This document shows, one piece after another, positions 58,233-59,478 of a DNA stretch of 64,000 nt. The first letter of the stretch is position 1. Every line of letters begins with the position of its first letter. Location: assembly GCF_965363235.1 (NCBI RefSeq), contig NC_134847.1:63980144-64044143 (forward strand), given 5' to 3'. A program made the position numbers and the translations under genes. Below the pieces are notes generated by a model, which ran no database searches, had not been told where the DNA came from, and saw only the letters and a list, made by a program, of their open reading frames with translations. The DNA comes from Mytilus galloprovincialis. Its lineage: Eukaryota.

Positions 58233-59313
58233 ATTTTGGATAACTCATTGGAAAAACAACAAAACTCATTCATATTTATCAATTTATTTTTCTTGAATAT
58301 ACCTGAAAAGCCCATAAATATGGGAAAATATCAGACGATAAATAGATTTGACAACGGATTCACATTTTGTTTCTTTGATTCACGTTTCTTTTATTTCGGA
58401 AAAGAATTCCAAGTTTTCAAAGATTTTCGAGGAATATAGGTATTAACAGCACCTAGAAAGATGGATTTGTGTTCAGGCATTATTAATTTTATGGGAAATG
58501 TGTATCCTCAAGCATGGACACTGATAGAGTTACTGAAAAAAACTATAAATTGTTGGTAACAAACTGTGCGGCAACTTTCATTTTCTCTTTCGGAACGTCT
58601 CTCAAGCGAGTAAACTTCCGGTTGATATTTCCATACAATTTATGTATTTTTACCACCAAACTTCTAAATTTGCAAAATATCAATCAAATAACAACGATAA
58701 ATTAATATTCACCTTTAAGACAATATTTTATTCTTACGGTTTTAGACGAAATCTATTTATATAATACAGGAAAGGGCGGGGCATGTGCGCGGGAATTTCA
58801 TATTTCACGTAAACTGTTTTATTTCATATTTTTACTTAAATAATTCCATTTTTTTCACAAAAGAACTTTTACACGTGTCAAAATATTCTTCTATTTACCC
58901 AGACATATAGTTTTGATAATCAAATGAACAAGAATTGAGCGAGGACGAAAAGGATTTCCCTAGATGTATTTTTAGATTTTTTACGTCATGCCAAAAACAA
59001 ATTATTTTCCTGAAAGTAAAATTAAAGTGTATATTTGTTTATTATAAAGACTTAAAATGGTTCAAATTGAATAATGGATATAGATCTGATGGCTCATTCA
59101 AATTTAAACTCGGAGTTTTGTGATTATGCGAGGATTTGAAGGTTTTTTGAAAGGTCAGAAAATTGCCAGTGTAACCCGTCAAAAGACGGGTTCCGCACTG
59201 AGAACGACGACGTCAAACCCGTCAAAAGACGGGATCCGCATGGTAAGGGTTAATGCAAAGTTGCAAAAGAAAAATTCATATGACAGTGTGAGAGAAAAAT
59301 ACTACATTTTTAC

Positions 59314-59478
59314 CTGTAATACATTATCTTGTGTAGCAGGTGTCCTTGGTGTCCTGAGATTACCCAATGATGGAGTCACATTGTAGTCTTGTAGTAAGGC
59401 CTGACTGGCACCATTTTGTGCACCCGTTTCCTCTGCCTGCTGTCTGGCATATTCACTAGCTTGACCAACTTTCACAAC
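59314..59478 (-). CDS. CDC5L: CDC5L exon e: [55 protein letters not shown]
   Basis: Acceptor tgttttag, donor gtaaaa; ~ human [55 protein letters not shown]. Confidence 0.85.

What the first reader, a model, noticed from the sequence alone, without database searches (positions are those of the whole stretch)
59249..59320. The transposon sits 64 bp from a CDC5L 5' splice site, in the host gene's orientation
The CDC5L exon at 59314-59478 (minus strand) ends with donor GTAAAA at 59313. The piggyBac right end is at 59249, so the insertion lies 64 nt into the intron and on the same strand as CDC5L. Inference: a 4.2-kb insertion carrying its own promoter and polyadenylation signals this close to a donor of an essential splicing-factor gene could cause premature termination, exonisation or chimeric transcripts. 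The intron (54696-59313) would be only ~370 bp without the element.
Basis: inference. Interest (0 to 1): 0.6.

Follow-up and report, generated by a model that had tools for sequence, protein, structure and literature searches.

The report
Young piggyBac insertion in CDC5L intron
An intact, very recently inserted piggyBac transposon sits in an intron of a mussel's CDC5L splicing-factor gene, 64 bases past an exon; other mussels lack it, so it is an ordinary insertion polymorphism with no shown effect on the gene.

Summary
A 4,244-bp piggyBac element (55006-59249, minus strand) has TTAA duplications on both sides and 15-nt inverted ends (12 perfect). It carries an intact 613-aa transposase ORF. 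It lies 64 nt downstream of the GT donor (59313) of a CDC5L exon (59478-59314), on the same strand as the gene.

New evidence: six independent Mytilus contigs cross the site with a single TTAA and no element. Most come from M. galloprovincialis gill DNA.

The window copy differs by one base from five other copies, including one in the M. edulis reference. The flanks differ by 0.7-2% from the empty alleles. The DDD triad and cysteine-rich domain are conserved. The family is therefore young and probably still mobile.

The core splice signals are untouched, and a related mussel carries a 4.7-kb intron at the same position. Sense-strand acceptor, donor and poly(A) motifs exist in the element, but only as predictions.

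Verdict: a real but ordinary young transposon insertion polymorphism.

The parts
59314..59478 (-). CDC5L exon 'e' (165 nt, phase 0 at both ends; [10 protein letters not shown]...QDNVLQ; corresponds to human CDC5L ~310-364)
   Evidence: Sequence read. PDB CDC5L alignment. Homologue alignment. tblastn map.
59308..59313 (-). 5' splice site GTAAAA of the e-f intron (exon ends ...CAG)
   Evidence: Spliced homologues continue with EAQNIMAL after VLQ, while genomic ORFs of relatives read on into the intron after VLQ.
54696..59313 (-). e-f intron: 4,618 nt with the element, 370 nt in the empty alleles
59250..59253 (.). TTAA target-site duplication on the 5' side of the element
   Evidence: The empty alleles have a single TTAA here.
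55006..59249 (-). Complete piggyBac-type DNA transposon, 4,244 bp
   Evidence: It is 99.9-100% identical to copies L008-L013.
59235..59249 (-). 5' terminal inverted repeat CCCTTACCATGCGGA
   Evidence: Inverted repeat I4 and pattern search.
59173..59240 (.). Two sub-terminal 25-nt direct repeats (59173-59197 and 59216-59240). Each holds the palindrome CCCGTCAAAAGACGGG. They may be transposase-binding sites (inference).
   Evidence: Direct-repeat family D1.
56391..58232 (-). Transposase ORF, 613 aa (587 aa from MAEAS at 58154). DDE_Tnp_1_7 domain, DDD triad and C-terminal cysteine-rich domain are all present.
   Evidence: Pfam PF13843 E=2e-82. Matches piggyBat 9c0f at E=2.5e-66 and T. ni piggyBac 6x67 at E=9e-32, with SLDEG, YCDNYY and GGVDRSDQ aligned to the catalytic Asp positions. 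Identical to the RefSeq M. edulis 'PGBD4-like' protein P0121.
55800..55990 (-). Stretch in the element's 3' non-coding part that behaves as a high-copy genomic repeat. It is part of the family consensus, because it is also present in L008 and L009.
   Evidence: All four short-read contigs L010-L013 break at window position 55949. There is only one copy in this window.
55006..55020 (+). 3' terminal inverted repeat CCCTTACCATGCTGA (as read on the + strand)
55002..55005 (.). TTAA target-site duplication on the 3' side of the element
54521..54695 (-). CDC5L exon 'f' ([24 protein letters not shown]...). The acceptor AG is at 54697-54696. The 3' boundary is inferred from the GT at 54520 and from homology.
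59009..59011 (-). Prediction only: acceptor-like TTTACTTTCAG|G inside the element. Splicing from exon e to 59009 would reach a stop after 7 codons.
   Evidence: Heuristic scan. No transcript evidence.
58226..58229 (-). Prediction only: the CAG directly after the ORF's first ATG. Splicing from exon e (phase 0) to 58226 would be in frame with 611 transposase codons. The polypyrimidine tract is weak (7/16).
   Evidence: No transcript evidence.
55377..55386 (-). Prediction only: consensus donor-like CAG|GTGAGT on the sense strand, in the element's 3' part

Best explanation
This is a young, still-segregating insertion of an apparently autonomous piggyBac transposon into a TTAA site in an intron of the Mytilus CDC5L gene.

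CDC5L encodes a core NTC/Prp19-complex splicing factor. The site lies 64 nt downstream of the donor of the exon that encodes human-equivalent residues ~310-364, and the element is in the sense orientation.

The element inserted by the usual piggyBac cut-and-paste mechanism. It duplicated TTAA and enlarged the intron from 370 to 4,618 nt. It left the donor, branch-point region and acceptor untouched.

Most likely (inference) the element is removed with the intron, and the allele is neutral or mildly deleterious. The element family appears to be currently or very recently mobile in the M. edulis / M. galloprovincialis complex.
For: Shown:
- Perfect TTAA duplications and inverted ends. The motif occurs twice in the window against 0.01 expected.
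- An intact 613-aa ORF with PF13843. The DDD triad and the cysteine-rich domain align with the active piggyBat and T. ni transposases.
- Six contigs from independent sequencing runs are 98-99.8% identical in the flanks. They cross the site with a single TTAA and a 370-nt intron. Run SRR29152234 is listed in PMC11729891 as M. galloprovincialis gill shotgun DNA.
- The window copy differs from five other copies by a single base, at 59001. Those copies are at other loci or in other samples, including M. edulis chromosome OY782964.1.
- The flanks differ from the empty alleles by 0.7-2.0%, so the insertion is far younger than the allelic coalescence of its flanks.
- All copies on record encode exactly the same protein, and the next relative is only 66% identical.

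Supporting tolerance of a long intron:
- The element ends 64 nt from the donor and 310 nt from the acceptor.
- The orthologous intron in a related mussel contig (L001) is 4,691 nt, with no ORF of 70 aa or more inside it.
Against: - No RNA evidence exists in either direction. No Mytilus CDC5L transcript or protein could be found in the protein collection.
- The insertion was seen only in this window. All six contigs read that cross the site lack it. An ORF unique to the filled junction is not on record. That is what a deleterious, low-frequency allele would look like, but it is also what a merely new one would look like.
- The element is in the sense orientation and carries acceptor-like, donor-like and AATAAA/ATTAAA motifs.
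- Mobility is inferred from polymorphism and copy identity. It was not observed.
- Two of the three other fully sampled copies have damaged ends.
Confidence: 0.8

Rival explanations
1. The sense-oriented element interferes with CDC5L expression from this allele. Pol II would terminate at the transposase's 3' signals, or element sequence would be exonised. For example, splicing from exon e to the acceptor-like site at 59009 gives a stop after 7 codons. Alternatively, an internal element exon could end at the donor-like CAG|GTGAGT at 55386. Either way the allele would be hypomorphic and kept rare by selection.
For: - The orientation is the same as the gene.
- The sense strand has 11 AATAAA hexamers, 2.6 per kb against 1.1 per kb in the rest of the gene region.
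- There is an acceptor-like TTTCAG|G at 59009 and a consensus donor at 55386.
- The insertion is absent from all six contigs read across the site, and the filled-junction ORF is not on record.
- From general knowledge, sense-oriented intronic transposon insertions are under-represented in many genomes.
Against: - There is no transcript evidence.
- The core splice signals are intact.
- Authentic acceptors in this gene have weak polypyrimidine tracts (7-10 of 16). Motif scans therefore cannot tell real sites from background: 39 sense against 56 antisense YAG sites pass a similar threshold.
- Poly(A) hexamers are common throughout this 32% GC gene.
- The rarity is equally explained by the insertion's extreme youth, with one private substitution in 4.2 kb.
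- A 4.7-kb intron is tolerated at this position in a relative.
Confidence: 0.2
2. This would be a nascent host-transposase fusion of the CSB-PGBD3 type. Exon e (phase 0) would splice to the CAG directly after the transposase ATG (58229-58227). The product would be a CDC5L(1-~364)-piggyBac transposase fusion, terminated by the element's own 3' signals.
For: - The element is in the sense orientation.
- The site is in frame, with 611 codons open to the transposase stop.
- Its polypyrimidine score (7/16) equals that of the authentic exon-f acceptor.
Against: - An in-frame AG arises by chance one time in three.
- No transcript was seen.
- The insertion is polymorphic and apparently rare rather than fixed and conserved.
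- The element is identical to mobile-looking copies elsewhere, so nothing suggests domestication.
Confidence: 0.04
3. The filled allele is an assembly artefact, with a repeat wrongly placed into the intron.
For: Only this window shows the filled state. The element is multi-copy, and short-read contigs break at its ends.
Against: Both junctions are exactly those of a piggyBac integration. The TTAA is duplicated, the ends are complete, and the flanks on both sides are colinear with the empty alleles to the base. A mis-join would not create a precise target-site duplication.
Confidence: 0.02
4. The 'empty' alleles are not ancestral. They would be products of precise piggyBac excision, so the insertion would be older and is being lost.
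For: From established knowledge, piggyBac excises precisely and restores a single TTAA. An excised site is therefore indistinguishable from a never-occupied one.
Against: - All six contigs read are empty, and they carry diverse flank haplotypes with 8-18 mismatches to the window.
- The window copy has only one private substitution.
- It is simpler to suppose that empty is ancestral and the insertion is recent.
Confidence: 0.05

Closest known systems
Autonomous piggyBac-superfamily transposons (T. ni piggyBac; Myotis lucifugus piggyBat)
   Same: - TTAA target duplication and short inverted ends beginning CCC.
- Asymmetric sub-terminal repeats.
- A single ORF with the DDE_Tnp_1_7 domain, DDD triad and C-terminal cysteine-rich domain.
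- Nearly full-length alignment to piggyBat 9c0f (E=2.5e-66) and to the catalytic core of 6x67.
- Insertion polymorphism, with a clean single TTAA at the empty sites.
   Different: - Only distantly related in sequence.
- At 4.2 kb it is larger than the 2.5-kb T. ni element. It has about 1.1 kb before the ORF and about 1.4 kb after it, and the latter contains a high-copy mussel repeat.
- Transposition has not been demonstrated experimentally.
CSB-PGBD3 fusion (a piggyBac element in intron 5 of human ERCC6/CSB, spliced to upstream exons).
   Same: A piggyBac element lies in the sense orientation inside an intron of an essential nuclear housekeeping gene. An in-frame AG lies just at the start of the transposase ORF.
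   Different: PGBD3 is fixed, ancient, immobile and demonstrably spliced. Here the insertion is polymorphic, very young and identical to other copies, and no fusion transcript is known.
Ordinary intronic transposon insertion polymorphisms and hemizygous presence/absence variation in Mytilus genomes
   Same: The element is present in one haplotype and absent in others. It is intronic and has no demonstrated phenotype.
   Different: Nothing essential differs. The only notable points are the closeness to a donor, the sense orientation and the essential host gene.

Membership tests
piggyBac superfamily DNA transposon | TTAA target-site duplication flanking the element | tested here: met
   TTAA at 59250-59253 and at 55002-55005. 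The empty alleles have one TTAA.
piggyBac superfamily DNA transposon | Short terminal inverted repeats (typically 12-19 bp, starting CC[C/A]) | tested here: met
   CCCTTACCATGC is perfect over 12 nt, and 14 of 15 nt match. The pair is found as I4.
piggyBac superfamily DNA transposon | Transposase with the DDE_Tnp_1_7 (PF13843) catalytic domain | tested here: met
   E=2.1e-82, covering profile positions 3-349 of 349.
piggyBac superfamily DNA transposon | Catalytic DDD triad (T. ni D268, D346, D447) | tested here: met
   In the alignment to 6x67, SLDEG matches TIDEQ, YCDNYY matches TCDNWF, and GGVDRSDQ matches GGVDTLDQ. The residue numbering of the T. ni triad is from memory.
piggyBac superfamily DNA transposon | C-terminal cysteine-rich DNA-binding domain | tested here: met
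   Pfam PF13842 scores only 18.1 bits, below its cut-off of 24. However, the domain aligns residue by residue with the piggyBat C-terminus, including the CxxC and CxxC...C...H positions.
piggyBac superfamily DNA transposon | Demonstrated mobility (excision or integration) | tested here: inconclusive
   The evidence is indirect only. The site is polymorphic with clean empty alleles, and copies at three or more loci are 99.9-100% identical.
CDC5L / Cef1 pre-mRNA splicing factor gene | Myb_Cef (PF11831) central domain and colinearity with CDC5L | tested here: met
   PF11831 E=1.8e-65. Human CDC5L from spliceosome structures aligns at E=9e-45 over residues 310-418. Exons equivalent to human residues 196-799 map in order on the minus strand. 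The best full-length hits are all molluscan CDC5L, at 67-75% identity.
CDC5L / Cef1 pre-mRNA splicing factor gene | N-terminal tandem Myb repeats | not testable with these tools
   The 5' exons lie beyond the window end. The first mapped exon corresponds to human residue ~196, at 63960.
Host-transposase fusion gene (CSB-PGBD3 type) | Sense-oriented intronic element with a functional in-frame acceptor upstream of the ORF | tested here: inconclusive
   The orientation requirement is met. An in-frame CAG at 58229-58227 exists, but it has a weak polypyrimidine tract and there is no transcript evidence.
Host-transposase fusion gene (CSB-PGBD3 type) | Fixed in the species and conserved, with the element immobilised | tested here: not met
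   The insertion is absent from six independent contigs. The element has intact ends and is identical to other copies.

The most novel reading that the evidence does not exclude
The element is a currently active, autonomous bivalve piggyBac that is spreading through the Mytilus edulis / galloprovincialis complex. In this particular allele its sense-strand signals would capture CDC5L transcription, through premature termination, exonisation or a CDC5L-transposase chimera. That would create a naturally segregating hypomorphic allele of an essential spliceosome gene.
Probability: 0.12. Interest if true: 0.55.

Novelty: new member of a known kind. Interest (0 to 1): 0.3.

Why it matters
As it stands, this is a textbook transposon insertion polymorphism, and nothing shows that it harms CDC5L.

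Its modest value is twofold.

First, it documents a low-copy piggyBac family that is intact and essentially identical between copies. The family shows presence/absence variation, so it is probably still mobile in blue mussels. Naturally active piggyBac elements are few, and a native bivalve one could serve as a transgenesis or insertional-mutagenesis tool in molluscs.

Second, a carrier of this allele would be a convenient natural test of how a 4.2-kb sense-oriented gene-carrying insertion next to a donor affects splicing of an essential gene.

Tried and rejected
- Same-species CDC5L transcripts or proteins that would confirm splicing or reveal chimeras. Two searches of the 5.8-billion-protein collection found nothing closer than 75% identity over the junction, or a 91%-identical genomic exon of a relative.
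- Exact look-up of an ORF unique to the filled junction (59120-59386, + strand), to find other carriers. It is not on record.
- Megablast of the element against the phage collection. No match, as expected for a eukaryotic element.
- Rfam, tRNA and tandem-repeat scans of 54000-60500. These looked for an RNA gene or a SINE origin of the embedded repeat and found nothing.
- Literature search for piggyBac together with Mytilus. No paper describes this family.
- Heuristic splice-site scanning. It was abandoned as a discriminating test because the gene's authentic acceptors score no better than background.
- The idea that intron length alone is harmful. It was rejected because the orthologous intron in contig L001 is 4.69 kb.

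Full report
**1. The observation**

Reading the minus strand confirms every coordinate.
- An AG at 59480-59479 precedes an exon running 59478-59314 (165 nt, whole codons, [10 protein letters not shown]...TQDNVLQ). It is followed by GTAAAA at 59313-59308.
- A TTAA lies at 59253-59250, and the element begins CCCTTACCATGCGGATCCCGTC... at 59249. Exactly 64 intron bases therefore precede the element.
- The other end reads ...GTCAGCATGGTAAGGG, ending at 55006, and is followed by TTAA at 55005-55002.
- The next acceptor AG is at 54697-54696, and exon f starts at 54695 ([18 protein letters not shown]...).
- The intron is 4,618 nt. Without the element (4,244 nt) and one TTAA it would be 370 nt.

The 16-mer TTAACCCTTACCATGC occurs exactly twice in the 64-kb window, in inverted orientation, against 0.01 expected by chance. 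The repeat finder reports the same pair (I4). It also reports two sub-terminal 25-nt direct repeats at the 5' end (D1).

**2. Identity of the two genes**

*The transposase.* The ORF 56391-58232(-) is 613 aa, or 587 aa from MAEAS.
- It matches Pfam DDE_Tnp_1_7 over the whole profile (E=2e-82).
- It aligns over almost its full length with the active bat element's transposase (piggyBat, 9c0f, E=2.5e-66), including the C-terminal cysteine-rich domain.
- It aligns with the catalytic core of T. ni piggyBac (6x67). Asp is conserved at all three catalytic positions: SLDEG, YCDNYY and GGVDRSDQ.

*The host gene.* It is CDC5L.
- The peptide joining exons e and f aligns colinearly with human CDC5L residues 310-418 from spliceosome structures (E=9e-45).
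- cDNA-like homologues read straight across the junction (...[11 protein letters not shown]...). Genomic ORFs of relatives instead continue into the intron after VLQ.
- A probe recalled from memory for human CDC5L was used only to locate exons. It maps residues 196-799 in order on the minus strand, from 63960 to 49021.
- The rebuilt protein hits Pfam Myb_Cef (E=1.8e-65). Its best full-length matches are molluscan CDC5L at 67-75% identity.
- The transposase and CDC5L share the minus strand.

**3. New evidence: the insertion is polymorphic**

An exact look-up of the small ORF covering exon e returned seven short contigs from public sequencing runs, of which six were read. All six (L002-L007) match the window flanks at 98-99.8%. 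They run from window 60338 to 59250 and continue directly at 55005. The sequence there is ...CTTTGCATTAAAAATC..., with one TTAA and no element. In L002 the intron is exactly 370 nt.

Runs SRR29152234-36 are given in PMC11729891 as shotgun DNA from gills of Mytilus galloprovincialis. Runs -37, -40, -42 and -43 lie in the same consecutive accession block. I infer, but did not verify, that they belong to the same ten-animal data set. The origin of SRR29182339 is unknown to me.

An ORF that exists only across the filled 5' junction is not on record anywhere.

**4. The element family is very young and probably mobile**

The exact 613-aa protein is on record at other places:
- M. edulis chromosome OY782964.1. 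The assembly is GCA_963676685.2, the Darwin Tree of Life M. edulis assembly according to PMC11304980. RefSeq names the protein 'piggyBac transposable element-derived protein 4-like'.
- An ENA metagenome contig (L009).
- Four M. galloprovincialis gill contigs (L010-L013).

Over 2.6-4.2 kb, these copies differ from the window copy at a single shared position: 59001, where the window has T and all covering copies have A. L008 has three further differences. By contrast, the flanks of the window differ from the empty alleles by 8-18 mismatches in 1.0-1.5 kb. The insertion is therefore much younger than the coalescence of the surrounding alleles.

No protein between 66% and 100% identity exists in the collection, which suggests a small, homogeneous family.

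The window copy has both ends and the target duplication intact. L008 lacks 29 bp at the 5' end and 5 bp at the 3' end, and L009 has an altered 3' tip.

**5. Does it affect CDC5L?**

No Mytilus CDC5L transcript was retrievable.

*What the sequence shows.* The donor core, and the 310 nt upstream of the acceptor (which include any branch point), are untouched. The intron becomes the longest of the 13 mapped in the window, at roughly twice the next longest (about 2.3 kb). The orthologous intron in a related mussel contig (L001, exons 78-89% identical) is 4,691 nt, with no ORF of 70 aa or more inside it. Length alone is therefore tolerated.

*Sense-strand motifs.* They exist.
- There are 11 AATAAA hexamers, 2.6 per kb against 1.1 per kb elsewhere in the gene. 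However, the first AATAAA or ATTAAA after the transposase stop codon lies 600-750 nt downstream, and ATTAAA is rarer in the element than elsewhere.
- An acceptor-like TTTCAG|G lies at 59009. Splicing there would give a stop after 7 codons.
- A CAG directly after the ORF's ATG is in frame with exon e.
- A consensus donor CAG|GTGAGT lies at 55386.

Authentic acceptors of this gene score no better than background in the same heuristic. These sites are therefore targets for an RNA test, not evidence. The claim that the element carries its own promoter is not supported by any test I could run.

**6. Interpretation**

The best-supported reading is a very recent piggyBac cut-and-paste insertion that is still segregating. 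Most likely it is spliced out with its intron.

That it was seen only once fits either novelty or mild selection against it. I give about 0.2 to a real effect on CDC5L expression, and a few percent to a CSB-PGBD3-like fusion. An assembly artefact is very unlikely, because the junctions show a precise target-site duplication and are colinear with the empty alleles to the base.

**7. Comparison and novelty**

The element meets all sequence-level criteria of the piggyBac superfamily. Mobility is supported only indirectly.

The configuration resembles the human CSB-PGBD3 locus in geometry, but fails its defining features of fixation and domestication.

This is a new member of a known kind. It is an ordinary intronic transposon polymorphism, of some interest because naturally active piggyBac elements are rare and none appears to have been described for Mytilus.

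Noticed in passing
L008 2990-7230 (M. edulis OY782964.1, ~26.58 Mb); L009 7190-7230: Two other copies are 99.9-100% identical internally and have the intact ORF, but their termini are damaged. L008 lacks the first 29 bp and the last 5 bp and has no TTAA. L009 has an altered 3' tip (GGTAAG|TTGGG). Such young copies with broken ends suggest aberrant integration, or abortive excision followed by repair.
   Followed up: partly
L008 1-9842: The M. edulis reference copy also lies inside a host gene, in the same orientation as that gene. The host gene has a 687-aa AMP-binding-domain product whose range spans the whole locus.
   Followed up: no
window 55006-59249 versus L008 and L010-L013: The element is essentially identical (0-4 differences in 2.6-4.2 kb) between M. 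edulis (UK reference) and M. galloprovincialis (gill DNA, China). The nearest other transposase in a 5.8-billion-protein collection is only 66% identical. This fits a recent invasion, spread by introgression, or horizontal transfer.
   Followed up: partly
window 55800-55990 (minus strand): All four short-read contigs carrying the element break at window position 55949. This lies inside a stretch (GATGTGGTATGATTGCCAATGAGACAACTCTCCACAAGAGACC...) that I recognise from memory as a very abundant mussel repeat. It is part of the family consensus, because it is also in L008 and L009. It has only one copy in this window, and no tRNA or Rfam match.
   Followed up: partly
L001 10214-14904 (ENA ERZ26273167, contig ctg42739): A related mussel-like genome in a metagenome assembly carries the orthologous CDC5L locus, with exons 78-89% identical. 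Its e-f intron is 4,691 nt, with no ORF of 70 aa or more inside it. The organism was not identified.
   Followed up: partly
window 325-1340: Long ORFs on both strands consist of a short repeated peptide unit (CIHCNCLLS... and NNYNVCMT...). This is a minisatellite or tandem array at the start of the window, not a gene.
   Followed up: no
protein collection: No Mytilus CDC5L protein or transcript-derived ORF was returned, although many Mytilus proteins are in the collection, including this transposase. The best full-length hit was Pinctada imbricata at 75% identity. CDC5L may be missing or mis-modelled in the Mytilus annotations held there.
   Followed up: no
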